From the NCBI GenBank assembly GCA_963663545.1, contig OY760505.1, forward strand, positions 2,773,664-2,837,663: a stretch of DNA of 64,000 nt, given 5' to 3'. Made by a program: the position numbers and the translations under genes. The notes below the pieces were generated by a model. That model was not told the origin of the DNA. It saw only the letters and a list, made by a program, of their open reading frames with translations, and did no database searches. The DNA is from Candidatus Delongbacteria bacterium (GTDB taxonomy: Bacteria > CAIWAD01). The first letter of the stretch is position 1, and each line of letters begins with the position of its first letter. Shown here piece after piece: positions 3,515-43,382 of this stretch.

Positions 3515-3522
3515 TTCCTTAG

Positions 3523-3595
3523 CTCCTGAGGAGGGACTTGAACCCCCAACCTAGTGGTTAACAGCCACCCGCTCTACCGATTGAGCTACTCAGGA
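3523..3595 (-). tRNA. tRNA-Asn (anticodon GTT)
   Basis: Cloverleaf folded by hand on minus strand: 7-bp acceptor stem tcctgag/ctcagga, D-arm gctc/gagc, anticodon stem ggtgg/ccact with loop ctGTTaa, T-arm ggggg-ttcaagt-ccctc; CCA not encoded. Confidence 0.85.
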
Positions 3596-4411: not shown

Positions 4412-4570
4412 AACAGCCGATGCGGCTGATCGGAGCTGGTGCCTCTCTCCGCTGAGTGAGAGTAGCCGGACCTTTGTGTCACGTGATTGCCTTCCGCCCC
4501 TTGATGACCGCTCCGCATGAGTACTTCCTGACATCTGCGCCTGAGTTTCCAGTAAGTGAAAGGCCCCTGC

Positions 4571-5854
4571 ATGGAGATCGGTATCCTTGTAACACACGGC
4601 ACAGATACATTGGCCTGGACTCTGCCCTACATCCGTTACGCGTTAAAGAACTTCCCTTGGAATGTTTGTCTCACGGGAAGTCAGGCACCGATGGAAAGCG
4701 CCTTCGCGCGCAGTGACGGTTACCAGAACATTCACGGAGCCGTGCGCTTCATGTCGGTGCTTGATCCACCCAACGTCTTCTGCGTGTTCAACAACGGCCT
4801 GAACGCTTACAGCGATTCGCTTGCCAAGCTCGAACGCTGGCGCCTGGATGCTTTTACCGGCGATCCCATTGCCACTATGGAGTGGGACGAGATTCAGCAT
4901 CGCTCTGGTGACGCGCGACTGCGCGAGCCCATTCGCTTTGACGAGCTGCACCTGATTACCACTGGTGGAACGATTGAGAGCGAGGCTGGCGAAGATGGCC
5001 TTACGCCCGGCAGTGGCAAGGTGGAGGAGTTTCTCAAACTGACCTTGGCCGATTCCTTTGAGAACGTCTTTGTGCATCGAATCGCCCGTGTTGATTCGGC
5101 GGAACTGGATGTATCACACATGGAGCGTTTTGCGCGCGCCATTTTCGATTGTGGCACCGGGCGCTGTCCGAGCGAATCGATTCGTCCTGATGCCGACGCG
5201 GATGCCGTGAATGTGACCTATGGCCAGCGCGGTGAGCTGCGGCAATCGTGGGAAGATGGACAGCAGCCGGCAAGTCTGGATCTGTCCTTTGCTCGTCACG
5301 TACCCCTTGTTTACTGTGACCCGTTTCGTAGCGCGTCAAGTTACCGGCGTGAAGTATACGCGGCCAAGGCTGTTGTTTTGGCTGGTTATGGTGGCGGCAA
5401 TGCGAACGCCAACCCCGATCTGCCTGGAAGCGTGATACCGGCACTGATGGATGCGGTGGAGAAGGACTGCCTTTTTGTGCTTAGCAGCCAAGTGCCCATC
5501 GGACCCGTGGACTTTGTCTACGAAACCGCCACCAAGTTGATTCGGCGTGGCGCGCTTTCAGGAGTGGATTTGAGTCTTCCTGAGTGTCAAGTGCGGCTGA
5601 TGTATCTGCTTGGACATGAAGAACAGATTGAAGGCATGGCTGAGCGTCTGCAGATTGAGCCGCTTCTGCTGAAGAAGGCGCTATTCATGTCGGGGATGAA
5701 GTTCCGTAACCGGGCTTCCAAGATGAGTTTTCGCATGCTCAGCGGTGATACATTTCCGCTAATCAGGGAAGACTTGCTGGTGGGACCGGCATTCGAGCAG
5801 TGCGAGGAAATCCTGAAGCGTGCTTTTTACGGTGATACAATCAGCTTGATCTGA
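4571..5854 (+). CDS. L-asparaginase family protein with atypical (apparently permuted) motif order
   Basis: ILVTHGTDT...LTGSQ...SDG.N block at the N-terminus, TTGGTIES block around residue 136, C-domain VVLAGYGGGNAN; start taken at ATG 4571 (track start GTG 4556). Confidence 0.6.
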   Translation: MEIGILVTHGTDTLAWTLPYIRYALKNFPWNVCLTGSQAPMESAFARSDGYQNIHGAVRFMSVLDPPNVFCVFNNGLNAYSDSLAKLERWRLDAFTGDPIATMEWDEIQHRSGDARLREPIRFDELHLITTGGTIESEAGEDGLTPGSGKVEEFLKLTLADSFENVFVHRIARVDSAELDVSHMERFARAIFDCGTGRCPSESIRPDADADAVNVTYGQRGELRQSWEDGQQPASLDLSFARHVPLVYCDPFRSASSYRREVYAAKAVVLAGYGGGNANANPDLPGSVIPALMDAVEKDCLFVLSSQVPIGPVDFVYETATKLIRRGALSGVDLSLPECQVRLMYLLGHEEQIEGMAERLQIEPLLLKKALFMSGMKFRNRASKMSFRMLSGDTFPLIREDLLVGPAFEQCEEILKRAFYGDTISLI

Positions 5855-27339: not shown

Positions 27340-28767
27340 TCACGAAGCCTCCGGTTTGGCTTTCAGCGCGAGTGAGGCAGCCAGGGCTGGAGCCTGCCAG
27401 GGCAGCCAGCGCACGGTAATCACCAACCCCACACCTTTGTAGACTGCAGAAGCAAGGATGGCCAGCCAGACAGCGGTCATTCCCAGCCCCGTCCACTCGA
27501 CAAGCATCCACGCCAGCGGAATGCGCAGCAGGTTACCCGGCAGATTGACTCGTAATGGCCACGAGCTCACTCCCGCTCCCACCAGGCTGTCGCCCAGAGT
27601 CACTTCCAGCAGTTGAAAGAGATTGGCGAAAGCGGCTAGGCGCACGTAGATCGAGCTCAATCGAATCAACTCCGGGTCGCTGGTGTAAATGCGACACAGC
27701 CATTCGGGAATTAGCAGCCAGGCGGCGGAGAAGAGCAGGGCGACGGGGAGCGCAGCCAGCAGACTGTGACCGGCGGCGTGATACACGGGCTGCAGGATGC
27801 TCCGCAGTTCCTGCTTGTCTGTGGGAACGCCCTGATTTGCAGGATGACGGGCCGCTGCGCGCCCGATGGCTTCGCCTGAGATCGCCGAGCTCGCAGCACC
27901 GAAGCCGACCAATACCATGAAGCCGATAGACTCAATGCCGCGAATGCCGATGCCCAAGACCGCGAAGGCTTCCTGACCGAATTGGGCCAGCAGGCGGTTC
28001 AGCACCATGAAAATTGAGGCGTAGAAGAGTGTCGACAGGCTGGACGGCAGACCCACACGCAAGATCTCGCGCCAACGGTTAAGCCGGGGACGCAACTGCA
28101 GTGCGCTGGGGAAATGCAGGGCGCCTTCGGCCAAACGGTGACGGAAGATGTACAAGCCAACCAGAGCGCTCAGAAAGCGTGAAGCAATTGAGGCCAGCGC
28201 GATGCCACTTAACCCGGCGGAAAACAGCAGCACCGCACTCGCGTTCAACGCCGTATTCAGCGCGACACCCAGTAGCTGCAAACGAAAGACGGTCTTTGTA
28301 TCACCAAGACCAATGAACACGCCGTCGACAATGGCGGCCATGGACATCAGCGGATAGCCCAGGTACATCAGGCGCAGGTAGAGAATGGCCAGCTTGAGGG
28401 TTTCGCCCTCGCCGCCCATCAGCCCCAGCACCCAGGGCGCAAGCACCCAGCCAGCAGCAAGAATGAGCAAGGAGCACAGCAGATTGAGTGTCAGGCCTTG
28501 CGCTGCAGCCATGGCGATGCCACGGTGATCCTCCATACCGCGCAGACGTGCTACAAGCGAGAGCACACCCTTTTGCACCATTGCGCTTAACCCGTAGTTG
28601 AAAATCAGCACCATCATGCACAAGCCGATAGCGTTGATTGCAGTCGGGCTGATGCGGCCTGCCCAGAAGAAATCGTTGATGGCGTAGAGGGTGCCCAGAA
28701 TAAAACTGCCCGCAGCGGGCAAGGCAATCTGATACACACGTTTCAATAGCGGACGGTCGACGTTCAA
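27340..28767 (-). CDS. MATE family efflux transporter
   Basis: 475-aa 12-TM-like protein; N-terminus LLKRVYQIALPAAGSFILGTLYAINDFFWAGRIS typical of MATE. Confidence 0.8.
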   Translation of the reverse strand: MNVDRPLLKRVYQIALPAAGSFILGTLYAINDFFWAGRISPTAINAIGLCMMVLIFNYGLSAMVQKGVLSLVARLRGMEDHRGIAMAAAQGLTLNLLCSLLILAAGWVLAPWVLGLMGGEGETLKLAILYLRLMYLGYPLMSMAAIVDGVFIGLGDTKTVFRLQLLGVALNTALNASAVLLFSAGLSGIALASIASRFLSALVGLYIFRHRLAEGALHFPSALQLRPRLNRWREILRVGLPSSLSTLFYASIFMVLNRLLAQFGQEAFAVLGIGIRGIESIGFMVLVGFGAASSAISGEAIGRAAARHPANQGVPTDKQELRSILQPVYHAAGHSLLAALPVALLFSAAWLLIPEWLCRIYTSDPELIRLSSIYVRLAAFANLFQLLEVTLGDSLVGAGVSSWPLRVNLPGNLLRIPLAWMLVEWTGLGMTAVWLAILASAVYKGVGLVITVRWLPWQAPALAASLALKAKPEAS

Positions 28768-29501
28768 TGGCTACCTCGCAGGAAGAGCAAACGCCAGAGG
28801 GATTCCGGCAAAGAGCGCAATAGACGCATGATGTAGTACCAGCGACGCGGCGTGTAACACACGTTCTGCCCAAGATCGAGGGCCTGCCACGCATCGCGGG
28901 CGACAAGATCGGGATTTACCGCAAAAGGCAAGGACATTCCAGCGGTCATCGGAGTACGCACTGGTCCGGGTTTGATCATCAGCCAGCGATGTCCCGCCTC
29001 CTGGAATACGACGCGCAGACGCATCACCTCTTCTTCCAACTGTTGTTTGGAAGCGCCGTAGTGCCAGTTGCTACTGCGCAGGCGGTCCCCGGCCACAGAG
29101 CCGAGCACCAGGAAGCGGGCCGGTTGTCCTGCTTCTGCAAGTCGCGATGCCAGGACTCTCAGCCAATTGACGCTGCCCAGGTGGTTGACGGCGGCCATTG
29201 TGTTACGGGCAGCAGAATCGGTTTCGGGTAGCATTTGTCCCCAGGCCAGGAGAATCGTGTCAGGGAGCAGGTGTGCTGCTGCAAGAGTACGAATCAACTC
29301 GTTGGGGCCGCTGCCATCGGTCGCCTCTGCAGGTAGCAGAACGGTTTCCACTCCCTGTTCACGTGATACACCGGCCAATTCAGCCAACTCGCCGGGACGA
29401 CGTGCTGCCAGCACTAGCGCCTCCGGGGGGCACTCCCGCAGTCTGTGCTTCACCATGGCTTGCGCGATGGCCGACCCGGCTCCCAGTACAAGAAGTTTCA
29501 T
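28764..29501 (-). CDS. short-chain dehydrogenase/reductase (DprE2-like)
   Basis: Trimmed to ATG 29501 giving MKLLVLGAGSAIAQ Rossmann N-terminus; ATGA overlap with upstream gene stop. Confidence 0.55.
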   Translation of the reverse strand: MKLLVLGAGSAIAQAMVKHRLRECPPEALVLAARRPGELAELAGVSREQGVETVLLPAEATDGSGPNELIRTLAAAHLLPDTILLAWGQMLPETDSAARNTMAAVNHLGSVNWLRVLASRLAEAGQPARFLVLGSVAGDRLRSSNWHYGASKQQLEEEVMRLRVVFQEAGHRWLMIKPGPVRTPMTAGMSLPFAVNPDLVARDAWQALDLGQNVCYTPRRWYYIMRLLRSLPESLWRLLFLRGSH

Positions 29502-30814
29502 CGACGCAGTCCCAGCCTTCGCGCCATCAGCCCCCCCATGATGCCCTGCGGATCGATGGTGGAAAGCAGCTGCAGAAACTCCTCGTAAGCCGGATACATG
29601 CGCCGGAAGACTCCGGCATCTAGCAGTGCATCCTTGGCCAGATACACGCGCCCTCCGTTTTCGGCGCACTCGAAATTGAGCTTGCGTACCACTTCAACAC
29701 TAGCCGTAGTACGTGGCAAATCGGCAGCCAACGTGACACCCGCAGCACCAAAGGCGAGCGGTCCGCCGCCGGGGTTCTCACCCATGATTTTCAGCACCGT
29801 CAGCGCACTTCCGCCGCAGGCTTCGCGCATCTGCGCCAGTGCGTGATACAAGAAATGACGAGATGAGTTACGGTTGCTGGCGTTCCAGGGAAGCAGACAC
29901 TGATACTGAAGGAAGCCCGCTTTTCCGTAGGCGCGATTCCAGTTGTCCACCGCATCCAGAGGCCAGAAGAAGGGCTGGATGTGCTGTAAACTGTGAGCCT
30001 CGGGGCGAGCTGGAGAAGTAGCCCAGACAAGGGTGTTGAAGGCGCGCAGGCTGAGCGCGTTTACCAGGCTGATGGGTGGTCTCAACGGAAGGCTGACCGT
30101 CATGCTGTCTTTCAACTCACCGGCACGATCGGCGGGATCTCCCAGGTGCAACAGCCCTCGTCCGCAGCCTGATGATCCATCAACCCAGGCAACCGACCAG
30201 GTGGCGTTACGGGTTTCCACCTTTTCCAGCATCTCCTCAAGATCCCGACAGCGGAATGTGATACGACGGACCCAGGCGCCTTGCGTTGGAACGAGCTGCA
30301 GTGTTGCACGAAGAATGATGCCCGTTAAGCCCATTCCGCCCATGGTGGCCGTGAACAGATCTCCCTGCTCCTGGTCACTGCAATGGAGGATCTCCCCGTT
30401 CGGGGTCAGGAGATCAAAGCCTGTGACACATGAGTTGAAGGAGCCGCTGTTGTGGTGATTCTTCCCATGTACATCTGCGGCAATCGCCCCGCCTACGGTT
30501 ACATGGGCTGTGCCGGGTAATACAGGCGGCCACCAGCCGACGGGAAACGTGTGCGCCATCAGCTCACGCAGGCTGACTCCGGCTTCCACTGTGATACAAC
30601 CGGTGTCTTTGTCGAAGGATAGAATGCGTCTGTTTTGGCGCATGGGAATCAGATCTGCCGCCAGCGCTGCATCGCCATAACTGCGGCCCATACCCCAGGC
30701 GAGTAAGCCCTTCTGTGATTTCGGTAGAAGGGCGTGTCCGGTGTCGAGTTCGTGCAGATTGGCCAGCAGTGTTGGATAGTACCCCCAACCCGCCATTGGC
30801 TGTGTGTGACTCAT
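29498..30814 (-). CDS. FAD-binding oxidoreductase (DprE1-like)
   Basis: ~438-aa ORF with GMGRSYGDAAL FAD-binding block; start at ATG 30814 overlapping UbiA-like stop (ATGA). Confidence 0.6.
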   Translation of the reverse strand: MSHTQPMAGWGYYPTLLANLHELDTGHALLPKSQKGLLAWGMGRSYGDAALAADLIPMRQNRRILSFDKDTGCITVEAGVSLRELMAHTFPVGWWPPVLPGTAHVTVGGAIAADVHGKNHHNSGSFNSCVTGFDLLTPNGEILHCSDQEQGDLFTATMGGMGLTGIILRATLQLVPTQGAWVRRITFRCRDLEEMLEKVETRNATWSVAWVDGSSGCGRGLLHLGDPADRAGELKDSMTVSLPLRPPISLVNALSLRAFNTLVWATSPARPEAHSLQHIQPFFWPLDAVDNWNRAYGKAGFLQYQCLLPWNASNRNSSRHFLYHALAQMREACGGSALTVLKIMGENPGGGPLAFGAAGVTLAADLPRTTASVEVVRKLNFECAENGGRVYLAKDALLDAGVFRRMYPAYEEFLQLLSTIDPQGIMGGLMARRLGLRR

Positions 30815-31665
30815 TTCAACAACCACCATGTGCTCAGTACCCAAAGACCTGTAGTGATGGCAAGGGGTAAATCAAGCAGCAGCGAGCGCGAGCTCCCTAA
30901 ATTGTGATACACGCGATGCAGATAATGCAACAGCGCGTAGGCCACAAAGGGCACGGTTAGAATCAGTGATACACCTTCCCGATGGACGTTGAGTTCGCTG
31001 CAGTACAAGCTGTACAGGATCAGTGCGGCGACAAGTGAGAGGCTGAGCACCTGGTCGAGAAATCGTAGTGAGTCTGCACTTCCACCTGCCGCTGAACCTT
31101 CCGGCTCCATGCGCCTTTTCGCCGCAGAGAGGAACAGGGCCAATGCGCCTGTGCAGAGAAGAATCCAGTCGCTGGCAGCTACGCCTACGGCTTGTGTTCC
31201 AGCCAGTACGCGTAATACAAAACCCGCCGATACCAGGCATAGATCCAGAGCGGGTACGCGCTTCAACCCCAGCGAGTAGCCCACATTAAGCAACAAGTAA
31301 AGGCCTAGCACCGGGGCGAGTTCAGGCATAAGTGTGAAGGTAGCTGCTAACAGCAGTGCCAAACCACCTAGTAGCATTGCGCCTACTTGCCTGCGTGATA
31401 CAAGCCCTGCTGCCAGCGGTCGCTGTGCTTTCGCCGGGTGCAGGCGATCCTGCGCTTCATCACACAAATCGTTGAAGAGATATACTAGCGATGAAGCGAT
31501 GCAGAAGAGCAAAAAAGCCAGTGTGCTTTTTAGCCAGGGCTGATTACCTGTGTGATACAACTGTACCGCTGTTGCCTGATTGGCAAAGCGGGCAAAAAAG
31601 GGCCCTGCGAAAACCAGCAGGTTCTTGGGCCATTGCTGTATGCGAAATTGATCGAACCAGTACAT
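30811..31665 (-). CDS. UbiA-family prenyltransferase (decaprenyl-phosphate phosphoribosyltransferase-like)
   Basis: 284-aa polytopic protein with NDLCDEAQD (NDxxDxxxD) motif. Confidence 0.7.
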   Translation of the reverse strand: MYWFDQFRIQQWPKNLLVFAGPFFARFANQATAVQLYHTGNQPWLKSTLAFLLFCIASSLVYLFNDLCDEAQDRLHPAKAQRPLAAGLVSRRQVGAMLLGGLALLLAATFTLMPELAPVLGLYLLLNVGYSLGLKRVPALDLCLVSAGFVLRVLAGTQAVGVAASDWILLCTGALALFLSAAKRRMEPEGSAAGGSADSLRFLDQVLSLSLVAALILYSLYCSELNVHREGVSLILTVPFVAYALLHYLHRVYHNLGSSRSLLLDLPLAITTGLWVLSTWWLLK

Positions 31666-33306: not shown

Positions 33307-33377
33307 TGGCCCATCGTCTAACGGCAGGACATCGGATTCTGGTTCCGAGAATTGGGGTTCGAATCCCTGTGGGCCAG
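33307..33377 (+). tRNA. tRNA-Gln (anticodon CTG)
   Basis: Hand fold: acceptor tggccca/tgggcca, D-arm gtct/ggac, anticodon stem tcgga/tccga with loop ttCTGgt, T-loop ttcgaat; CCA not encoded. Confidence 0.8.
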
Positions 33378-33386
33378 CTAGCCCAA

Positions 33387-33420
33387 GGCCCTGTGCACCT
33401 GCCGCACGGGGCCTTTTTTT
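33387..33420 (+). terminator. rho-independent terminator downstream of tRNA-Gln
   Basis: Stem ggccctgtgc / gcacggggcc (one G-U), loop acctgcc, then 7 T. Confidence 0.7.
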
Positions 33421-34339: not shown

Positions 34340-34536
34340 TTGCCCTGCGACAGCGCGTGCTGGCATATCGGATTCCCATTGTGCATCCCCCGTTGGCTTT
34401 AGCTTGCGGGGGATGCGCTTTTCTACTCAAATCACACACTATAACTACGCAACAGAAGCGGCTGGCAGAGGGCTTTGCTACTTTATCACCGAACCTGATC
34501 CACGAGCAGAATCATCCAGATCCAAAAGGCGAGGCG

Positions 34537-36453
34537 ATGAAATACATCCCACTGGCGGAAGCCACGCCCGAGTACTACGAACAGATCGGGCTGAAATCAG
34601 GTCTGGAAATTCATCAGCAGCTACTCACCGACACAAAGCTCTTCTGTCGCTGTCCTGCCGGCATCTACTGCCGCGATTGGGATGCGGAGGTGCTTCGTCA
34701 CATGCGCCCGACGTTGTCGGAGATGGGCGAGTACGACGGTACGGCGCTGATGGAATTCAAGACACGCAAGGAGATCGTCTACCGCATCAAAAACGAGACG
34801 GTCTGTACCTACGAGTTCGATGACACGCCGCCCTTCACCGTTGACGAGAAGGCGGTGGACATTGCCATTGAGGCTGTGATGCAGCTGGGTGGAAGCCTGG
34901 TCAGCGAGATTCACATCACGCGCAAGCAGTACCTGGACGGCTCCATTCCCACGGGTTTTCAGCGCACGACCATCGTCGGCGTTGGCGGCCGCATTCCTTA
35001 CAAAGGTCGCTGGATCGACATCATCCAGTTGAGCCTTGAGGAAGACAGTTGCCGCGAGATCAGCGATTCCGGCCACCGTCGCGTGTACATCACCGACCGC
35101 CTGGGCATGCCGCTCATCGAGACCGTGACCGATTGCCAGATGCATACGCCCCAGGATGTTGCCGGTGTGGCGGAAGTGCTGCGCCGCCTGGTTCGTGCTA
35201 CAGGCAAAGTGCGAACGGGTTCGGGTGCGGGGCGCGAGGATACCAATGTCTCCGTACGCGGAGGCGAGCGCTGCGAAATCAAGGGTGTCGGCTCGATCAA
35301 ACTGATTCCCATTCTGGTGCACAACGAGGCGTTCCGTCAAGTGCAGTTGCTGGAGATTCGTGAAGAGCTGCTGCGTCGCGGTATCACGGAGGATAGCTTC
35401 TCCTGGCGCAGTCAGGATCTGAGCGATCTGGCGGCCGACCTCCCTACCGATGTCGAGCTGGCATTGCAGACTGGCGGAAGCATGCATGCTGTTGTGCTGG
35501 AAGGCTTCGCCGGACTGCTATGCAAGGAGCTGAGTCCCGGACGCAACTTCCTGAGCGAGATTAGTGACCGCGTCCGTGTCATTGCCTGCGTCGACAGCAT
35601 TCCCAATGTGCTGGGCAGCGACGGCGCCGGTGATACGGATCACCCGGGGTTGTGGCAGAAAGTGCGTGCGGCCATGCAGGCCGGAGACGAGGACGCTGTG
35701 ATACTCGTTTGGGGGCCTGCGGCTGATATGGCAACCGCTGTCAGCGAGATCTCCATTCGTGCTCACGAGGCGATTGTTGGCGTGCCACGTGAGACAAGAC
35801 AGCCCATGCCGGACGGTACGACGCGTTTCGAGCGAGTCCTGCCGGGAGCCGATCGCATGTATCCGGATACCGATCTGCCTCCGCAGGCAATCGAGGACGA
35901 ACGCATCGAGCGCATTCGTGCCGGTTTGCCGCTTCCCCCTTGGCAGGTGTACGAAGAGGCCATCGGTGACGGATTGCATCACGAGCTTGCTGCCCGCATC
36001 TCCATTTCGCCCTACGCCGGGCTTTATCGGCGATTGCGTGATACACAGCCTGAACTGCCTGCCAACTTGCTGGCACAGTGCCTTTGCGAGTGGACCGTCG
36101 ATGCGCGTCGTCGCGGCGCTGCGGCATGGAAACTCAGCGACGCTAGTCTGGGCGAAATGCTGGTGGAAGTGGCCACGGGCCGGCTTCTACCAGCCGGGTT
36201 GCATCTCATGCTGATTCGTGATACAAAGGCTGACAGCATTCAGGAGGCAATTGACGAGCTCGGGTTGAATCCAGCAAGCGATGCGGAGATTCTGTCTGCC
36301 ATCGATTCTGCACTGAAGCAGGTGCCCCGCAACAGCGATCCTGCGGCGCGTCATCGCTTCACCATGGGCGAAGCCATGCATCGTTTGCGTGGGCGTGTAA
36401 TGGGCAGAGTCCTTGCCGAGCGGATCAGCCAAGAATTGGAGGCACGCGCGTGA
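34537..36453 (+). CDS. gatE: glutamyl-tRNA(Gln) amidotransferase subunit E (archaeal-type GatE)
   Basis: 638 aa from ATG 34537; GatB/E-type N-terminus GLKSGLEIHQQL...KLFCRCP; length and pairing with downstream GatD-like gene favour GatE over GatB. Confidence 0.75.
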   Translation: MKYIPLAEATPEYYEQIGLKSGLEIHQQLLTDTKLFCRCPAGIYCRDWDAEVLRHMRPTLSEMGEYDGTALMEFKTRKEIVYRIKNETVCTYEFDDTPPFTVDEKAVDIAIEAVMQLGGSLVSEIHITRKQYLDGSIPTGFQRTTIVGVGGRIPYKGRWIDIIQLSLEEDSCREISDSGHRRVYITDRLGMPLIETVTDCQMHTPQDVAGVAEVLRRLVRATGKVRTGSGAGREDTNVSVRGGERCEIKGVGSIKLIPILVHNEAFRQVQLLEIREELLRRGITEDSFSWRSQDLSDLAADLPTDVELALQTGGSMHAVVLEGFAGLLCKELSPGRNFLSEISDRVRVIACVDSIPNVLGSDGAGDTDHPGLWQKVRAAMQAGDEDAVILVWGPAADMATAVSEISIRAHEAIVGVPRETRQPMPDGTTRFERVLPGADRMYPDTDLPPQAIEDERIERIRAGLPLPPWQVYEEAIGDGLHHELAARISISPYAGLYRRLRDTQPELPANLLAQCLCEWTVDARRRGAAAWKLSDASLGEMLVEVATGRLLPAGLHLMLIRDTKADSIQEAIDELGLNPASDAEILSAIDSALKQVPRNSDPAARHRFTMGEAMHRLRGRVMGRVLAERISQELEARA

Positions 36454-37838
36454 GCGATCAGGAAGTCTACAAGGGATATCGTGAGCCGACTCTTTCACTG
36501 CTGAAACAGCACGGCGTACGCGTGTGGAGTGAAGTCGATATCGAGAGTTCGCGAGGCCGCTTCTCGGGTTTGATTCTACCGCGCAGCGAGACCGCCGACG
36601 AGGTTCACATTGTTGTCAAGCTGGCCACCGGCTACAACATTGGTCTGCGCTACGACACCATCCAGTCTATTACTGAGAAGGGCTATAAGGAAGCTCACTA
36701 CAAGATTCCTGAAAAGGAGTTTCCCTACTCACCCAACAAGCCGCGCGTCAAATTGCTGGGAACCGGTGGCACAATTGCGTCCAGACTGGACTACCGCACC
36801 GGTGCTGTGATACCGGCGTTCTCACCCGGTGAACTCTACGGAAGTGTTCCCGAACTGGCAGACATTTGCAATCTGGAAACGGAGAAACTCTACGGCGTTT
36901 TCAGCGAGAACATGGGACCGGAACAGTGGATGGGTGTAGCACGCGCCATTGGCGAGGAAATCGAACGCGGCGTGGATGGCATTGTCATCGGGCATGGTAC
37001 CGATACAATGCATCACACGGCGGCGGCGCTTTCCTTTATGGTGCAGAACACACCGGTGCCCATTGTAATGGTAGGCAGCCAGCGCAGCAGCGACAGGCCG
37101 TCCTCCGATGCAGCGCTTAATCTGATGCACGCCACCCTGACCGCAGCCAGTAGCGATATCGCTGAAGTCATGGTTTGCATGTTCGGTCCTACTTCAGACC
37201 AGTATGGCTTGCTGCATCGCGGTACGCGAGTGCGTAAGATGCACAGCAGCTATCGTAGTACATTCCGCACTCTTGGTGATACACCGCTAGCTATGGTCAA
37301 TCGACAGGAAGTGACTCCCATTAAAAAGGAGTATGCACACCGTCGTCAGGACAAGAATGTGCAGATCAAGGCTGCCTTTGAAGAGCGTGTTACAATTCTC
37401 TACTACTATCCCAACATGCATCCCGATATGGTCGACAGTCTGGTGGACCGGGGCTACAAGGGTATTGTGATTGCCGGCACTGGTTTAGGCCACGTCAACA
37501 AGCCGCTTTACAAGGCGTTGGGACGCGCTTGCGAGCAGGGCGTCTCGGTGTGCATGACTGTGCAGACCCTATGGGGCTATGCGCAGATGTACGTTTACGA
37601 GACGGGACGCGAGTTGATGGAGTTGGGCATTTATCCGCTGGCGAATATGCTTCCGGAAGTGGCCTACGTCAAACTGGGCTGGGCCTTGGGGCAGAGCAGC
37701 GATCCGGTTGAAGTGCGCCGCATCATGGAGACGCCGATTGCCCATGAAATCACACCACGCGAACCCCACAACGGCTATCTGGTTTACCAGGGCGGAATTC
37801 CCGAGGTCGAGGAGTTCATTCGCAACTACCGCAAGTAG
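36450..37838 (+). CDS. gatD: glutamyl-tRNA(Gln) amidotransferase subunit D (archaeal-type GatD)
   Basis: 462 aa; N-terminal extension then asparaginase-like domain LLGTGGTIASRLDYRTGAV and IVIGHGTDTMHHTAAALS; GTGA overlap with gatE stop. Confidence 0.78.
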   Translation: MSDQEVYKGYREPTLSLLKQHGVRVWSEVDIESSRGRFSGLILPRSETADEVHIVVKLATGYNIGLRYDTIQSITEKGYKEAHYKIPEKEFPYSPNKPRVKLLGTGGTIASRLDYRTGAVIPAFSPGELYGSVPELADICNLETEKLYGVFSENMGPEQWMGVARAIGEEIERGVDGIVIGHGTDTMHHTAAALSFMVQNTPVPIVMVGSQRSSDRPSSDAALNLMHATLTAASSDIAEVMVCMFGPTSDQYGLLHRGTRVRKMHSSYRSTFRTLGDTPLAMVNRQEVTPIKKEYAHRRQDKNVQIKAAFEERVTILYYYPNMHPDMVDSLVDRGYKGIVIAGTGLGHVNKPLYKALGRACEQGVSVCMTVQTLWGYAQMYVYETGRELMELGIYPLANMLPEVAYVKLGWALGQSSDPVEVRRIMETPIAHEITPREPHNGYLVYQGGIPEVEEFIRNYRK

Positions 37839-37850
37839 CCGATCGACAGC

Positions 37851-37884
37851 AAAAAGAAAAGCCCCGCATCACGCGGGGCTTTTT
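37851..37884. terminator. bidirectional rho-independent terminator between convergent gatD and PPIase genes
   Basis: A-run, hairpin gccccgc-atcac-gcggggc, T-run. Confidence 0.75.
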
Positions 37885-39966: not shown

Positions 39967-40785
39967 GTGAGCAATTTGCTGCAACGAATTCTGACCGCTG
40001 CGATAGCAGGCCCCATTTTTCTACTGCTGATCTGGCTTGGTGGCTGGTGGTTAATGCTGCTTATGCTGGGCTGTTCCTGTATGGCTTTCTTCGAGCTGCA
40101 CGAATTGTATCACAGAAAAGGAGTAGGTCACTCAGTGGCCTGGGTTCTGCCCTTTGTCATTTTGCTGCCTTTGGCAGCGGGCGTAAGCAAGACCGATTTC
40201 CTTAGCGTCTTTGGCACGTTGAGTTTCGGCTGGTTCCTGCTGTTGCTGCTGCGAGAGCTGTTCTCTTCGCGCTCCTCTGTGCTTGTCAGCCTGGGAGCAG
40301 CGGTTCTTACCGGTGTACTGGCTTGTCTGCCCTTTGCCTCTGTGGTGGCGCTGGATACAATTCTGCATCCGGCAGGGTTACGCAATCTTCTACTTCTGGT
40401 AGTGCTTTCGACCTGGGTGATGGACAGTGCCGCCTATTTTGGTGGGATCAACTTCGGGCGACATAAACTCTTTGAGCGTGTATCACCAAAGAAAACCGTC
40501 GAGGGATTCCTGTTTGGCATCGTTGGTGCGCTGATGTCGGGAGCGCTTGCCGGCTTGCTGATGGATTCGATTCCCTTGAGAGCTGCGCTGATTGCTACGG
40601 GCCTTGTTGGCGTGTTTGGACCGCTGGGCGATCTGCTGGAATCCCGCTTAAAGCGTGATGCAGGCGCCAAGGATAGCTCAACTCTGCTTCCCGGCCATGG
40701 CGGCCTATTGGACCGTTTCGACTCCTGGATTTTCGTAATGCCGGCCCTCTACCTTCTCTGTTCAAGTGGCCTTCTGTTGAAATGA
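39967..40785 (+). CDS. cdsA: phosphatidate cytidylyltransferase
   Basis: C-terminal signature ...GDLLESRLKRDAGAKDSSTLLPGHGGLLDRFDS; start at GTG 39967 after ggagg (track start 39937). Confidence 0.85.
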   Translation: MSNLLQRILTAAIAGPIFLLLIWLGGWWLMLLMLGCSCMAFFELHELYHRKGVGHSVAWVLPFVILLPLAAGVSKTDFLSVFGTLSFGWFLLLLLRELFSSRSSVLVSLGAAVLTGVLACLPFASVVALDTILHPAGLRNLLLLVVLSTWVMDSAAYFGGINFGRHKLFERVSPKKTVEGFLFGIVGALMSGALAGLLMDSIPLRAALIATGLVGVFGPLGDLLESRLKRDAGAKDSSTLLPGHGGLLDRFDSWIFVMPALYLLCSSGLLLK

Positions 40786-43382
40786 AAAGAGCCTTATCCA
40801 GCTGGCCGACCTGGGTCGGTGTTTTGTTGATGGTGTTGGCACGAGTTCCTTCACCACAGTACGGTGACGTGCTGCAGATCCCGCTGAGCTGCCTAGGTTT
40901 GCTATTCCTCTTCTACGGGTTGCGGCAGGCGCTCACGGAATATGCTGAGAAGGTCCGCGCCGTCGAAGCCCATCTGCCGGTGCTCTTCCTCGTGTATCAC
41001 GTTGCGAAGACCTGGGCCAACGACCTTGATGGTCCTCTGTTCTACGCAATCAGCTCTGTGTACGTATTGCTGCTGCCGGTGCTGTCCACACTGACTGTTG
41101 CCTGGTTTGTGATACGCTGGCGCGAAATACGTCCGATGAAGAAGGGGAAGCCGCATCGCTTCTTCACTGCCATCGCTTTGCTCTTCGCGCTTCTGGGTTT
41201 CTTTGCAGGTAGTGTCACACTGTTGATTCCCGCAGTGATTCCCGTCGTCTGGGACTGGATCCGTCGCCCTGCAGTGCAGGCCAGACTGAAGTATTACACG
41301 CCGCTGCTGATTCTGACAGCCGTTTTCCTGATCGTGGGACACATCAATCCCGGCCTCGAAGAAAGCAGCCAGGGTGGCGCGAGTCTTGTCAACGACATTG
41401 GCAACAACACGGAGAGCTTGCTGGGACAAGCGCCATTGCACACGCTGAACGCGCTAAGCGAGTGCTGGCTCTTTCTTGTGACCTGGCTATCGGTGCTGGT
41501 GCTAATTGGAAGTCTCGTGAGACACGCGGGCATTCGCACCAAGCTGACAGCGAACGCAATGCTCTCAAGTCTGCTGCCCATGGGAGTGTTGCTGGGTGTG
41601 GCGACGACGATTGCCATTCTCATGATGGGCGCATACAGAGCGCGCCTGGTGCTCATGCAGAGCGAACAGCAGTTGGAGCAACACCAGCTGGTTACCAACT
41701 GGTTCGCTGAGGCGATGGAGAACCCGCTGGATCAGGATGCGCGTCGCCGATTCGAACGCCAATTGGGCAGTCTAACCATTGGCGTACTACCGCAGGCGTT
41801 CTTCAGTCTATACTTGCCCGATGGTGATGCGGCCAAAGAGGATAGTCTGGATCATTGGCGACATCTGACTTCCACTTGGCAGCGCCCAAGTGATTTCGAA
41901 ATGCAGGAAATCAGCCTGCCGTGCAATCGTGATACATTGGACCGTGACGGTCTAATGGTCATCAATCAGCATCTCTATTCCGTCTCACTCGTAGAGCGCA
42001 GTGGCCTGCTTGCTGTTGGCTACTTTCTGCGAAGCCAGGAAAACCTGGAGGAGGTTGGCGGCGAGCTGGCAGCGGCGTTACGCATTGACGAGATCGCCGA
42101 CGGGGATCTGCCCAAATACGCGCTCTACCGCATGGGATTTGCCAAGCAGCCTGCGCGCACGCAGCTTGTTGCCACACCGGATTACCCCGAGCACACTCGC
42201 AGCCTGTTGCAGCGATTGCGCGTGGCTGGCATGACCCGACTGGACAACGACAACTTCGTCCTTGACGACCCCCATACTGCGCTTGTGGCAACGGTGCAGT
42301 CCTTTCCACAGCAGATGATGCGCAACGTCCTTTTTCAGAACGAAATCATCGGTGCCAGTTATATGCTGCTCATGTTCGTCGAACTGATGCTTGTGTTACC
42401 GCTTTTGCTGGGCGGCATTTGGGTGGCCTGGCTGCTCAACCGCCAGATTGACCGCAGTGTGCACCAGTTGAAGCGTGGAACCCACGAGTTGGCGCAGGGT
42501 AATCTGGATCACGTGATCGAGGTAGAAACCACAGACGAGCTCGGACAACTCGCAAGCAGCTTCAACAACATGAGTCGCCGCATTCGTGCCAATATCGACG
42601 AGCTGGCGCAGAAGGAGCGTCTTGAGCGAGATCTTGAGTTGGCGAGACGCATTCAGCGTGGCTTGTTGCCGCAAGTAGCGCCGCGTATCACAGGACTTGA
42701 TGTGGCCGGTGTCAATCGCATGGCTCAGGCAGTAGGCGGCGATTACTACGACGGCATCAGTCTGGATGATCGCGAACTCGTACTGGCACTCGGTGATGCA
42801 TCGGGAAAAGGGGTACCGGCTTCACTGTTGATGTCTAATTTGCAGGCAGCCTGGCGTGCATTGGCCACCGGGGGGCTGGAGTTGAACGAGGTAAATCGTC
42901 GTTTGAATGAACAGCTTGCTGCCTCCACAACCGACGAGATGTTCGTCACCTTTTTCCAATGCCGTTTCCGCAGACGTGATACAGGTGGCTTTCACTTGTG
43001 TTACAGCAATGCAGGCCACAATCCGCCTATTCTGCTGCGAGGCGGCGAGACCCACGAGTTGGGAGAGGGCGGCTTGGCGCTGGGCATGTTTGGCGGGATG
43101 GCGTACACTCAGGGGGAATTGGATTTCCTTCCAGGCGACCGGCTGCTACTCTATACCGACGGCATTAATGAAACCATGAATCCAGTCGGCGAAGAGTATG
43201 GTGAAGAGCGCATTCGCGAATACCTGCGATGCTGTTCCAGCAATAGCGTGCGCCACATGGTGGACGGATTGATGATTGATGTAGAGCGCTTCCAGGCGGA
43301 AGCCCCGACCTATGACGACCAGACGCTGCTGGCAATTCATTGCACGGAAGACAGTGATACATCATCTGCTACCGGGGAGTGA
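40782..43382 (+). CDS. membrane sensor with HAMP domain and PP2C/SpoIIE-type serine phosphatase domain (RsbU-like)
   Basis: 866 aa; N-terminal TM region; HAMP-like ...ELAQGNLDHVIEVETTDELGQLASSFNNMSRRI; phosphatase region GGDYYDGISL...LGDASGKGVPASLLM...LLLYTDGINE. Confidence 0.75.
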   Translation: MKRALSSWPTWVGVLLMVLARVPSPQYGDVLQIPLSCLGLLFLFYGLRQALTEYAEKVRAVEAHLPVLFLVYHVAKTWANDLDGPLFYAISSVYVLLLPVLSTLTVAWFVIRWREIRPMKKGKPHRFFTAIALLFALLGFFAGSVTLLIPAVIPVVWDWIRRPAVQARLKYYTPLLILTAVFLIVGHINPGLEESSQGGASLVNDIGNNTESLLGQAPLHTLNALSECWLFLVTWLSVLVLIGSLVRHAGIRTKLTANAMLSSLLPMGVLLGVATTIAILMMGAYRARLVLMQSEQQLEQHQLVTNWFAEAMENPLDQDARRRFERQLGSLTIGVLPQAFFSLYLPDGDAAKEDSLDHWRHLTSTWQRPSDFEMQEISLPCNRDTLDRDGLMVINQHLYSVSLVERSGLLAVGYFLRSQENLEEVGGELAAALRIDEIADGDLPKYALYRMGFAKQPARTQLVATPDYPEHTRSLLQRLRVAGMTRLDNDNFVLDDPHTALVATVQSFPQQMMRNVLFQNEIIGASYMLLMFVELMLVLPLLLGGIWVAWLLNRQIDRSVHQLKRGTHELAQGNLDHVIEVETTDELGQLASSFNNMSRRIRANIDELAQKERLERDLELARRIQRGLLPQVAPRITGLDVAGVNRMAQAVGGDYYDGISLDDRELVLALGDASGKGVPASLLMSNLQAAWRALATGGLELNEVNRRLNEQLAASTTDEMFVTFFQCRFRRRDTGGFHLCYSNAGHNPPILLRGGETHELGEGGLALGMFGGMAYTQGELDFLPGDRLLLYTDGINETMNPVGEEYGEERIREYLRCCSSNSVRHMVDGLMIDVERFQAEAPTYDDQTLLAIHCTEDSDTSSATGE

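What the first reader, a model, noticed from the sequence alone, without database searches (positions are those of the whole stretch)
34537..37838. Archaeal-type GatE-GatD amidotransferase pair in an apparently bacterial genome
A 638-aa GatB/E-family protein is translationally coupled to a 462-aa protein with an N-terminal extension plus asparaginase-like domain (GTGGTIAS, HGTDT), which is the GatD architecture. GatDE is regarded as the archaeal route to Gln-tRNA(Gln), while the surrounding genes (T9SS sorting domains, TetR, CdsA, BirA-CoaX, intrinsic terminators) look bacterial. Either an inter-domain transfer or a lineage with unusual tRNA-dependent amidation.
Basis: partly seen in the sequence, partly recalled or inferred. 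Interest (0 to 1): 0.6.

Follow-up and report, generated by a model that had tools for sequence, protein, structure and literature searches.

The report
Archaeal-type GatDE amidotransferase in a bacterium
This bacterial genome really does carry the two-subunit enzyme (GatE plus GatD) that textbooks call archaea-only for making glutamine-charged tRNA, but it is one member of a large, already database-annotated bacterial clade rather than a one-off oddity.

Summary
gatE (34537-36453, 638 aa) and gatD (36450-37838, 462 aa) overlap by 4 nt (GTGA), with a GGAGG 7 nt upstream of the gatD start. Both pass NCBIfam's curated equivalog cut-offs for GatE and GatD and fall far below those for GatB and asparaginase. 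Catalytic residues are conserved. An AlphaFold model of GatE best matches the two solved archaeal GatE structures and keeps the AspRS-like insertion domain. The contig is bacterial: T9SS genes, PpiD, CdsA, BirA, CoaX, a murein amidase and a bacterial TrpRS.

The pair is not unique. At least 594 bacterial species-representative genomes encode close relatives, and gatE->gatD order holds in at least 72 of the 80 loci examined. These include Ignavibacteria, Kapabacteria, Calditrichia, Aminicenantes, Elusimicrobia, and Latesci-, Krumholzi-, Fermenti-, Zixibacteria and Cloacimonadota. NCBI already names them GatE/GatD.

Bacterial sequences form one clade (GatD 91-97/100, GatE 100/100) nested within archaeal GatD, closest by identity to Asgard sequences. 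This suggests an old archaea-to-bacteria transfer. The nearby tRNA-Gln is fully bacterial (U1-A72, G73), and the tRNA-binding modules of GatE are its most diverged parts.

Reviews to 2022 still call GatDE archaea-only. Whether these bacteria also keep GatCAB or GlnRS could not be tested.

The parts
34537..36453 (+). gatE: the kinase/amidotransferase and tRNA-binding subunit of Glu-tRNA(Gln) amidotransferase GatDE (638 aa).
   Evidence: NCBIfam NF003107 scores 485 bits (cut-off 456) and TIGR00134 scores 425 bits (cut-off 320). It aligns over residues 13-635 to the PDB GatE chains 1zq1_C and 2d6f_C. His26, Glu168 and Glu195 align with the Mg2+ ligands His15, Glu157 and Glu184 of the M. thermautotrophicus enzyme, and are invariant in 61 bacterial homologues. 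The AF2 model has pLDDT 86.9; its top Foldseek hits are GatE at E about 1e-39, and partial AspRS hits mark the insertion domain.
36450..37838 (+). gatD: the glutaminase (asparaginase-fold) subunit with the GatD-specific N-terminal domain (462 aa, GTG start).
   Evidence: NCBIfam NF003217 scores 508 bits (cut-off 310) and TIGR02153 scores 503 bits (cut-off 324). Pfam finds GatD_N, Asparaginase and Asparaginase_C. PDB GatD chains 1zq1_A and 2d6f_A match at E about 1e-115, against about 1e-42 for the best asparaginase. The catalytic motifs are GTGGTIAS (104-111), HGTDT (182-186) and RKMH (262-265).
36438..36453 (+). Translational-coupling junction: GGAGG (36438-36442), a 7-nt spacer, then the GTG start of gatD overlapping the TGA stop of gatE (GTGA, 36450-36453).
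   Evidence: Read directly from the sequence. Tight gatE->gatD spacing recurs in most of the 72 bacterial loci that hold both genes.
37857..37883 (.). GC-rich hairpin flanked by A and T runs, lying between the convergent gatD and ppiD-like genes. It is a likely bidirectional intrinsic terminator that ends the gatED unit.
   Evidence: Terminator scan and the sequence itself.
34384..34415 (+). Hairpin (CATCCCCCG, 14 nt, CGGGGGATG) followed by a T-rich tail, downstream of the T9SS-tail protein gene. It suggests that gatED is transcribed on its own.
   Evidence: Sequence inspection. The automatic scan did not call it because its loop exceeds 8 nt. This is an inference.
33307..33378 (+). tRNA-Gln(CUG), the presumed substrate type for GatDE. 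It has bacterial identity elements: U1-A72, G2-C71, G3-C70, G73 and G10.
   Evidence: ARAGORN and Rfam both call it. The sequence was read. The identity set is taken from PMC9976931. Linkage to gatED is not conserved: 0 of 60 other loci have a tRNA-Gln nearby.

Best explanation
This is a functional two-gene operon, gatE-gatD, encoding a heterodimer-type, tRNA-dependent Glu-tRNA(Gln) amidotransferase (GatDE) in an uncultured bacterium that carries T9SS genes and is probably of the FCB group.

The inferred mechanism follows the archaeal enzyme. A non-discriminating GluRS first charges tRNA-Gln with glutamate. GatE binds Glu-tRNA(Gln) and phosphorylates the gamma-carboxyl, using Mg2+ and ATP. GatD hydrolyses Gln or Asn to release ammonia. 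The ammonia passes to GatE, which amidates the activated intermediate to give Gln-tRNA(Gln).

The operon belongs to a single large bacterial GatDE clade. That clade most likely descends from an ancient archaea-to-bacteria transfer, with Asgard-like sequences the nearest by identity. It was then inherited mostly vertically, with some transfer between bacteria. The GatE tRNA-binding modules have since diverged to fit bacterial-type tRNA-Gln (U1-A72) in place of archaeal A1-U72.

Shown here: family membership, intact catalytic residues, the fold, the bacterial host, the breadth and monophyly of the bacterial clade, and the bacterial type of the tRNA-Gln. Inferred: enzymatic activity, the ND-GluRS partner, the direction and age of the transfer, and adaptation to U1-A72.
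For: - Family membership: both proteins pass the equivalog cut-offs. The domain architecture includes GatD_N.
- Similarity to solved enzymes: both align over their full length to the solved archaeal GatE and GatD sequences, with the catalytic His, Glu, Glu (GatE) and Thr, Thr-Asp, Lys (GatD) conserved.
- Fold: the AF2 model matches GatE structures at E about 1e-39 and TM 0.75 (normalised to the target), against GatB at E about 1e-21 and 17% identity. AspRS-like insertion hits are present.
- Purifying selection: 91 GatE columns are at least 90% conserved and identical in both the bacterial and archaeal sets. Bacterial GatD sequences average 79% identity across phyla.
- Operon structure: a 4-nt overlap, an SD sequence and a downstream terminator.
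- Bacterial host.
- Breadth: at least 594 related stretches in GTDB species representatives, and the best 80 are all from bacterial MAGs. The top 120 GatE hits that carry names are all bacterial. The gatE->gatD order holds in at least 72 of 80 loci, with no other conserved neighbour.
- Phylogeny: the bacterial GatD clade has 91/100 support, or 97/100 with the divergent bacterial lineages included. Bacterial GatE has 100/100. Archaeal GatD never forms a clade excluding the bacterial one (0 of 300 replicates), and the bacterial clade nests at least 4 nodes deep.
- Nearest archaeal relative: Ca. Sigynarchaeota, at 49% GatD identity, with the same gatE->gatD order.
- Substrate tRNA: the tRNA-Gln has U1-A72 and G73.
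- Pattern of divergence: the GatE insertion and tail domains share only 23-35% of consensus residues with archaeal GatE, against about 45% in the catalytic cradle.
Against: - No activity data exist for any bacterial GatDE, as far as the searchable literature shows.
- The rest of the genome could not be read. It is therefore unknown whether GlnRS or GatCAB are present, which would make GatDE redundant or differently specialised, and whether the GluRS is non-discriminating.
- The sister relation to Asgard GatD is weakly supported (17-50/100).
- GatE shows no special affinity to Asgard GatE: 34% identity, against 32-34% to euryarchaeal GatE.
- The trees are neighbour-joining, with one asparaginase outgroup and many unlabelled representatives.
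- Pfam's GAD model and its YqeY gathering threshold are not met by the window's GatE.
Confidence: 0.8

Rival explanations
1. The bacterial GatDE clade was not acquired from archaea. It is a vertically inherited relic of a GatDE already present before the bacterial-archaeal split (the LUCA scenario discussed in PMC9499178, citing Sheppard and Soll 2008), and most bacteria have lost it.
For: - Bacterial GatE sits on a long branch roughly equidistant from the Asgard-type and euryarchaeal GatE. Mean distance is 1.38-1.39, against 1.09 between the archaeal groups.
- Identity to any archaeal GatE is only 32-34%, while archaeal GatEs are 40-52% identical to each other.
- The clade spans many deep bacterial phyla and largely groups by host lineage.
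Against: - Rooted on an asparaginase, the bacterial GatD clade nests at least 4 nodes deep inside archaeal-type GatD in 300 of 300 bootstrap replicates. Archaeal monophyly is never recovered.
- Bacterial GatD sequences are very similar to each other (mean 79%), against 38% among the archaeal representatives. That argues for a younger radiation.
- The distribution is patchy, at least 594 of 185,579 species representatives.
- The long GatE branch is equally explained by adaptation to a new tRNA.
Confidence: 0.12
2. The bacterial enzyme has changed or broadened its job. It might act as the sole amidotransferase for both Glu-tRNA(Gln) and Asp-tRNA(Asn), replacing GatCAB. Alternatively it might serve a specialised or regulatory role alongside GatCAB or GlnRS, rather than being the main route to Gln-tRNA(Gln).
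For: - In this genome both tRNA-Gln and tRNA-Asn carry U1-A72 and G73. That is the shared determinant used by the dual-specificity bacterial GatCAB (PMC9976931).
- The GatE tail domain, which reads the D-loop in the archaeal enzyme, is poorly conserved even among bacteria (0.33-0.49 column conservation).
- No gatB-like gene lies within the 64-kb window or within 10 kb of gatDE in the 80 loci.
- One relative sits next to asnA.
Against: - Archaeal GatDE is strictly a Glu-AdT (PMC2330236).
- The catalytic cradle is strongly conserved with the archaeal enzyme.
- Absence of gatB from about 1.3 Mb of flanking DNA says almost nothing about whole genomes.
- No experimental data exist.
Confidence: 0.2
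3. The finding is an artefact. Either the contig is archaeal or a chimeric assembly, or the large protein is a bacterial GatB with an insertion sitting next to an ordinary asparaginase.
For: None was found. The only weak point is that Pfam's GAD model does not hit the insertion, and GatB_Yqey scores below its gathering threshold.
Against: - Bacterial genes flank the pair on both sides within a 3.72 Mb contig. An independent assembly (ENA ctg7355l) has the same arrangement.
- GC content is uniform across the region.
- The same cassette lies on bacterial contigs of up to 2.1 Mb in many phyla.
- GatB models score at most 132 bits against cut-offs of at least 315, whereas the GatE equivalogs pass.
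- GatD_N is present, and GatD hits are 73 orders of magnitude better than asparaginase hits.
- The predicted fold retains the AspRS-like insertion.
Confidence: 0.01

Closest known systems
Archaeal GatDE, the heterodimer-type Glu-tRNA(Gln) amidotransferase (structures: M. thermautotrophicus 2D6F, P. abyssi 1ZQ1)
   Same: - The two subunits and the domain order match. GatE has cradle, AspRS-like insertion, and helical/tail domains. GatD has the N-terminal domain plus both asparaginase domains.
- The catalytic residues are the same.
- The sequences align over their full length and pass the equivalog HMM cut-offs.
- The predicted fold matches.
- The gatE->gatD gene order is the same as in the Asgard locus L085.
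   Different: - The host is a bacterium.
- GatE is only 32-34% identical to archaeal GatE, lower than archaeal GatEs are to each other.
- The insertion and tail domains, which contact the tRNA, are the most diverged parts. Pfam's GAD and YqeY models no longer reach threshold.
- The cognate tRNA-Gln has U1-A72, not the A1-U72 that the M. thermautotrophicus enzyme reads.
Bacterial GatCAB, the heterotrimeric Asp/Glu-tRNA amidotransferase
   Same: - It does the same overall chemistry on the same type of bacterial tRNA-Gln (U1-A72).
- GatB and GatE share the catalytic cradle. GatB chains are hit at E about 1e-17 by sequence and about 1e-21 by fold.
   Different: - The glutaminase subunit is unrelated: GatA is an amidase, whereas GatD has the asparaginase fold.
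- GatDE has no GatC.
- GatE carries the AspRS-like insertion that GatB lacks.
- GatB HMM scores fall far below their cut-offs.
The database-annotated bacterial GatE/GatD proteins in MAGs (Elusimicrobiota, Aminicenantes, Latescibacteria, Krumholzibacteria, Ignavibacteria and others)
   Same: - They belong to the same clade, with GatD 73-78% and GatE 50-57% identical to the window's proteins.
- They have the same gatE->gatD cassette.
- NCBI already names them GatE/GatD.
   Different: - The window's pair belongs to a separate, unnamed lineage. Only one relative reaches 84% GatE identity and the next are at 57%.
- A tRNA-Gln gene lies 1.1 kb upstream here, which is not seen in the 60 other loci scanned.

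Membership tests
GatE (Glu-tRNA(Gln) amidotransferase subunit E) | The sequence scores above the curated equivalog thresholds for GatE and below those for GatB. | tested here: met
   NF003107 scores 485.4 bits (cut-off 456) and TIGR00134 scores 425.5 bits (cut-off 319.55). The best GatB model scores 131.7 bits (cut-off 338).
GatE (Glu-tRNA(Gln) amidotransferase subunit E) | The three Mg2+-coordinating catalytic residues of the kinase site are present (His15, Glu157 and Glu184 in M. thermautotrophicus; PMC2330236). | tested here: met
   They align with His26, Glu168 and Glu195 of the window protein. All three are invariant in the alignment of 61 bacterial homologues.
GatE (Glu-tRNA(Gln) amidotransferase subunit E) | An AspRS-like (GAD) insertion domain lies within the cradle domain. 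GatB lacks it. | tested here: met
   The Pfam GatB_N match spans residues 21-458 for a 277-position profile, which implies an insert of about 160 aa. The insert is modelled at pLDDT about 90. Foldseek gives partial matches to AspRS (4ah6 and 1eqr, probability 0.99-1.00) and full-length matches to GatE. Pfam's GAD sequence model itself is not hit, so the feature is met by fold and not by sequence profile.
GatE (Glu-tRNA(Gln) amidotransferase subunit E) | A C-terminal YqeY-like helical and tail domain that binds the tRNA D-loop. | tested here: inconclusive
   GatB_Yqey scores 21.2 bits, below the gathering score of 27. The region aligns to the tails of the PDB GatE chains and is modelled as an all-helical domain at high pLDDT. 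It is poorly conserved among bacteria. D-loop binding was not tested.
GatD (Glu-tRNA(Gln) amidotransferase subunit D) | A GatD-specific N-terminal domain precedes the asparaginase fold, and the sequence scores above the equivalog thresholds. | tested here: met
   PF18195 GatD_N scores 44.1 bits (cut-off 25.7). NF003217 scores 507.9 bits (cut-off 310) and TIGR02153 scores 503 bits (cut-off 324).
GatD (Glu-tRNA(Gln) amidotransferase subunit D) | The asparaginase-type catalytic residues are present: the nucleophile Thr plus the Thr-Asp-Lys triad. | tested here: met
   GTGGTIAS is at residues 104-111, HGTDT at 182-186, and the Lys of RKMH at 263. All align identically to 1zq1_A and 2d6f_A.
GatDE holoenzyme and pathway | The two subunits are co-encoded or co-occur, so that the alpha2-beta2 enzyme can form. 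| tested here: met
   The genes are adjacent and overlap. The pairing is conserved in at least 72 of 80 bacterial loci. A natural GatE-GatD fusion protein exists (P0122). Physical complex formation was not tested.
GatDE holoenzyme and pathway | It converts Glu-tRNA(Gln) to Gln-tRNA(Gln) in an organism that lacks GlnRS and has a non-discriminating GluRS. | not testable with these tools
   Only 64 kb of the 3.72 Mb genome is available, and it contains no glnS, gltX or gatCAB.
GatDE holoenzyme and pathway | It recognises the archaeal tRNA-Gln identity elements (A1-U72 and the D-loop shape). | tested here: not met
   The tRNA-Gln(CUG) in the window has U1-A72, G2-C71, G3-C70 and G73, the bacterial set. 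This concerns the substrate and not family membership. It implies altered recognition of the first base pair if the enzyme is active.
GatDE holoenzyme and pathway | Restricted to Archaea (an 'archaeal signature protein' according to reviews). | tested here: not met
   The host contig is bacterial. At least 594 related stretches occur in bacterial species-representative genomes. Reviews that state the archaea-only distribution are PMC2330236, PMC8007984 and PMC9499178.

The most novel reading that the evidence does not exclude
In this and hundreds of other bacterial lineages, an archaeal-derived GatDE has displaced GatCAB as the Glu-tRNA(Gln) amidotransferase. Its tRNA-binding modules have been re-tuned from archaeal A1-U72 to bacterial U1-A72 tRNA-Gln, and it might even act on Asp-tRNA(Asn), which shares that determinant here. 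This would be a natural, replicated experiment in the co-evolution of an amidotransferase with its tRNA. It would bear on two long-standing questions: why archaea keep a dedicated Glu-AdT, and why tRNA-Gln identity differs between the domains.
Probability: 0.3. Interest if true: 0.65.

Novelty: new member of a known kind. Interest (0 to 1): 0.45.

Why it matters
Reviews up to 2021-2022 still describe GatDE as an archaeal signature enzyme found only in archaea (PMC2330236, PMC8007984, PMC9499178). The models of how glutamine entered the genetic code, and why GlnRS never invaded archaea, rest partly on that distribution.

A large, monophyletic bacterial GatDE clade working with bacterial-type tRNA-Gln shows that the distribution claim is out of date. 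It also offers a ready system for testing how GatE reads the first base pair and the D-loop.

For this particular window, however, the pair is an ordinary member of that clade. Annotation pipelines already recognise it. The news is for textbooks, not for databases.

Tried and rejected
- **Conserved tRNA-Gln linkage.** I looked for a conserved link between tRNA-Gln and gatED. None of 60 related loci has one, so the proximity in the window is not a general feature.
- **Conserved neighbours.** I looked for GluRS, gatCAB, glnS or asnS near gatED by clustering all ORFs from 80 loci. Nothing beyond gatE and gatD recurs. A tblastn search with GatE found no GatB-like paralogue in about 1.3 Mb of held DNA.
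- **Naming the source organism.** I tried exact-sequence look-ups of ten window proteins. All are unnamed entries from one 3.72 Mb NCBI/ENA contig.
- **Placing the lineage with TrpRS.** It is clearly bacterial, but the nearest named hits (about 64% identity) are spread over KSB1, 'FCB group', Marinimicrobia, Acidobacteria and Polyangium. The phylum stays unresolved.
- **RNA elements.** An Rfam scan of the window found only the two tRNAs, with no leader or riboswitch near gatE.
- **Literature.** Five full-text searches found no paper describing bacterial GatDE. The Caldithrix genome paper does not mention the amidotransferase. Sheppard and Soll 2008 (PMC2366055) is not held.
- **Asgard donor.** This is tempting from GatD identity (49%) and the shared gene order. 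Bootstrap support is weak (17-50/100) and GatE shows no such affinity, so I do not claim a specific donor.


Full report

Yes. One search lists a + strand ORF at 34357..36453. Its in-frame ATG at 34537 gives a 638-aa protein that is identical to a public gene call (P0001). A second + strand ORF at 36450..37838 gives 462 aa from a GTG start.

The two genes overlap by 4 nt (GTGA, 36450-36453). A GGAGG lies at 36438-36442, 7 nt upstream of the GTG. This is the classic layout for translational coupling.

A GC-rich hairpin at 37857-37883, flanked by A and T runs, sits between gatD and the convergent ppiD-like gene. A hairpin with a T-rich tail at 34384-34415 follows the upstream T9SS-tail gene. gatE-gatD therefore looks like a self-contained transcription unit. 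GC content is uniform across the region.

**2. What are the proteins?**

*Sequence profiles.* Pfam finds GatB_N in the large protein. In the small protein it finds GatD_N, Asparaginase and Asparaginase_C. NCBIfam is decisive:

| Protein | Model | Score (bits) | Cut-off (bits) |
|---|---|---|---|
| GatE | NF003107 | 485 | 456 |
| GatE | TIGR00134 | 425 | 320 |
| GatE | best GatB model | 132 | 338 |
| GatD | NF003217 | 508 | 310 |
| GatD | TIGR02153 | 503 | 324 |

*Solved structures.* The best sequence hits are the archaeal GatDE chains. GatE matches 1zq1_C and 2d6f_C at E about 1e-90 over residues 13-635. GatD matches 1zq1_A and 2d6f_A at E about 1e-115, against about 1e-42 for the best plain asparaginase.

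*Catalytic residues.* The Mg2+ ligands of the M. thermautotrophicus GatE kinase site are His15, Glu157 and Glu184 (PMC2330236). They align with His26, Glu168 and Glu195 here, and these are invariant in 61 bacterial homologues. In GatD, the nucleophile Thr, the Thr-Asp pair and the Lys are all conserved.

*Predicted fold.* An AlphaFold2 model of GatE is confident (pLDDT 86.9, pTM 0.85). Foldseek ranks the two archaeal GatE structures first, at E about 1e-39 and TM 0.75 normalised to the target. GatB chains follow at E about 1e-21 and 17% identity. Partial hits to AspRS show that the GatE-specific AspRS-like insertion domain is retained.

**3. Is the host bacterial?**

Yes. Both flanks carry bacterial genes:
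- T9SS sorting-domain proteins and a PorV/PorQ-family protein
- a PpiD/SurA-type PPIase
- CdsA, BirA and a type III pantothenate kinase (CoaX)
- an N-acetylmuramoyl-L-alanine amidase
- two-component sensors and a TetR regulator
- a bacterial-type TrpRS (TIGR00233, 354 bits)

The window's proteins are found on a 3.72 Mb contig in NCBI/ENA. A second, independent assembly shows the same gene order. Every TrpRS relative that carries an organism name is bacterial. About 20 unnamed close relatives (68-78% identity) define an uncultured lineage. The nearest named hits (about 64%) are KSB1, 'FCB group', Marinimicrobia, Acidobacteria and Polyangium. The phylum is unresolved, but an FCB-type bacterium fits the T9SS genes. 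The "archaeal or chimeric contig" alternative is rejected.

**4. The pair is not unique to this genome.**

The best 80 are 73-78% identical and all come from bacterial MAGs. They are labelled Elusimicrobia, Zhuqueibacterota, Ignavibacteria, Melioribacter, Kapabacteria, Calditrichia, Aminicenantes, Zixibacteria, Latescibacteria, Krumholzibacteriia, Fermentibacteria, Aegiribacteria, Cloacimonadota and others. Their contigs reach 2.1 Mb.

The top 120 GatE relatives are 50-57% identical, apart from one at 84%. Those that carry names are bacterial and are already called "Glu-tRNA(Gln) amidotransferase subunit GatE" by NCBI and JGI.

In at least 72 of the 80 loci, gatE lies immediately upstream of gatD. 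Most exceptions are contigs cut off upstream. Nothing else is conserved around the pair. It behaves as a two-gene cassette in variable contexts.

**5. Where did the bacterial clade come from?**

*GatD representatives.* An exhaustive search of 1.84 billion cluster representatives with GatD gave only a few close representatives. A long tail at 35-45% identity followed. Labels are:
- Ca. Sigynarchaeota (Asgard): 48% identity, 49% over the trimmed alignment
- Thermococcus
- Nitrososphaerota
- Bathyarchaeia
- Methanosarcina
- Thermoplasmata

*GatD tree.* In a neighbour-joining tree of 150 GatD sequences, the core bacterial sequences form one tight clade (91/100). With four more divergent sequences the support is 97/100. 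One of those four (P0121) lies in a clearly bacterial context, with HisKA_3/GerE genes, an LPS heptosyltransferase and ZnuABC.

Rooted on an asparaginase, the bacterial clade is nested at least 4 nodes deep within archaeal-type GatD in all 300 bootstrap replicates, under two distance corrections. Archaeal GatD never forms a clade that excludes it.

*Asgard comparison.* The Asgard locus has the same gatE->gatD order, with an 11-nt spacer. However, the sister relation to the Asgard group is weakly supported (17-50/100).

*GatE tree.* All bacterial-context GatE sequences group at 100/100. They sit on a long branch equidistant from Asgard-type and euryarchaeal GatE.

*Within bacteria.* GatE mostly groups by host lineage. 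Krumholzibacteriia, Fermentibacteria with Aegiribacteria, Melioribacter, and the Ignavibacteria/Kapabacteria block each hold together. Aminicenantes and Calditrichia show some scatter.

*Reading.* I read this as one old archaea-to-bacteria transfer, followed by largely vertical descent and some transfer between bacteria. An origin before the domains split cannot be excluded with these methods, and I give it about 12%.

**6. How it most likely works.**

By homology to the archaeal enzyme (PMC2330236, PMC9499178), the steps are:
1. A non-discriminating GluRS makes Glu-tRNA(Gln).
2. GatE binds it and phosphorylates the gamma-carboxyl.
3. GatD releases ammonia from Gln or Asn.
4. The ammonia is channelled to GatE, which forms Gln-tRNA(Gln).

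The catalytic machinery is intact, as shown in section 2. The activity itself is inferred.

There is one informative difference from archaea. The M. thermautotrophicus enzyme reads the A1-U72 pair and the D-loop of archaeal tRNA-Gln. The tRNA-Gln(CUG) 1.1 kb upstream of gatE (33307-33378) has U1-A72, G2-C71, G3-C70, G73 and G10. This is exactly the bacterial identity set (PMC9976931).

GatE, the tRNA-binding subunit, fits this picture:
- It is only 32-34% identical to any archaeal GatE, whereas archaeal GatEs are 40-52% identical to each other.
- GatD is much less diverged, at 44-49% identity to archaeal GatD.
- The divergence is concentrated in the insertion domain (about residues 281-400) and the C-terminal tail (about 481-638). 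These share 23-35% of consensus residues with archaeal GatE, against about 45% in the catalytic cradle.
- Pfam's GAD and YqeY models, which hit every listed archaeal GatE, mostly miss the bacterial ones.

I infer that the bacterial clade re-tuned tRNA recognition after the transfer. This is an inference and has not been tested.

**7. What could not be settled.**

The central biological question is whether these bacteria use GatDE instead of GatCAB, alongside it (as many archaea do, with GatCAB making Asn-tRNA), or redundantly with GlnRS. Answering it needs whole genomes. Only 64 kb of this genome is available, and it contains none of gatCAB, glnS, asnS or gltX. No GatB-like gene lies within 10 kb of gatDE in the 80 loci, which is uninformative at the scale of whole genomes. 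tRNA-Asn in the window also has U1-A72 and G73, so a broadened specificity cannot be excluded.

**8. Novelty and verdict.**

The enzyme family is well known and structurally characterised. The window's pair meets its curated membership thresholds, and hundreds of bacterial homologues are already annotated as GatD/GatE in public databases. For this locus the right label is "new member of a known kind".

What is not reflected in the searchable literature is that GatDE occurs in bacteria at all. Five full-text searches found no paper describing it. Reviews from 2008 to 2022 state that it is archaeal-only.

That gap, together with the switch in tRNA identity, makes the bacterial clade a worthwhile subject for comparative and biochemical study. 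The finding is moderately rather than highly surprising.

Noticed in passing
window 4556-5854 (+): A second, very divergent asparaginase-family ORF (432 aa). Pfam's Asparaginase N-domain match starts at profile position 79, so the usual N-terminal nucleophile motif is missing. HGTDT lies at residues 13-17, and a TGGTI-like motif (ITTGGTIES) appears later, at about residues 143-150, ahead of an Asparaginase_C domain. The protein could be truncated, rearranged or inactive. It lies about 1 kb from tRNA-Asn(GUU).
   Followed up: partly
window 33307-33378 (+) and 3522-3595 (-): tRNA-Gln(CUG) appears to have a 4-nt variable loop and G37. It is followed by a strong terminator hairpin (33385-33415). 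tRNA-Asn(GUU) shares U1-A72 and G73 with it. The proximity of tRNA-Gln to gatED is not seen in 60 other bacterial loci.
   Followed up: partly
L086 8001-10832 (protein P0122): A 943-aa natural fusion of a GatE catalytic region with a complete GatD (GatB_N, GatD_N and the Asparaginase domains). It lies next to a Ser/Thr kinase-TPR gene and an MFS transporter gene. It supports a physical GatE-GatD partnership in this clade.
   Followed up: no
L083 and L084 (protein P0123): A divergent GatD (50-51% identical to the window's) lies about 0.8 kb upstream of asnA (aspartate-ammonia ligase) on two independent contigs.
   Followed up: no
L013 and L058: Two separate gatE-gatD loci come from one Aminicenantes MAG (MFD05942.bin.3.222, contigs CAVSAI010000030 and CAVSAI010000039). 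This is either a duplication or mixed strains within the bin.
   Followed up: no
window 28764-31665 (-): A DprE1-like FAD oxidase, a DprE2-like SDR and a UbiA-family phosphoribosyltransferase lie together. This resembles the decaprenyl-phosphate arabinose pathway best known from mycobacteria, which is unusual in an FCB-type bacterium.
   Followed up: no
L081 versus window 40782-43382: The 866-aa HAMP/SpoIIE sensor-phosphatase gene of the window is split into three gene calls (556, 146 and 183 aa) in the independent ENA assembly. These are probably frameshift errors in that assembly.
   Followed up: no
bacterial GatD across L001-L080: GatD is unusually conserved across very distant bacterial phyla (mean 79% identity, range 71-95%), while its partner GatE is only about 50% identical over the same genomes. 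The reason for the asymmetry is not established.
   Followed up: partly
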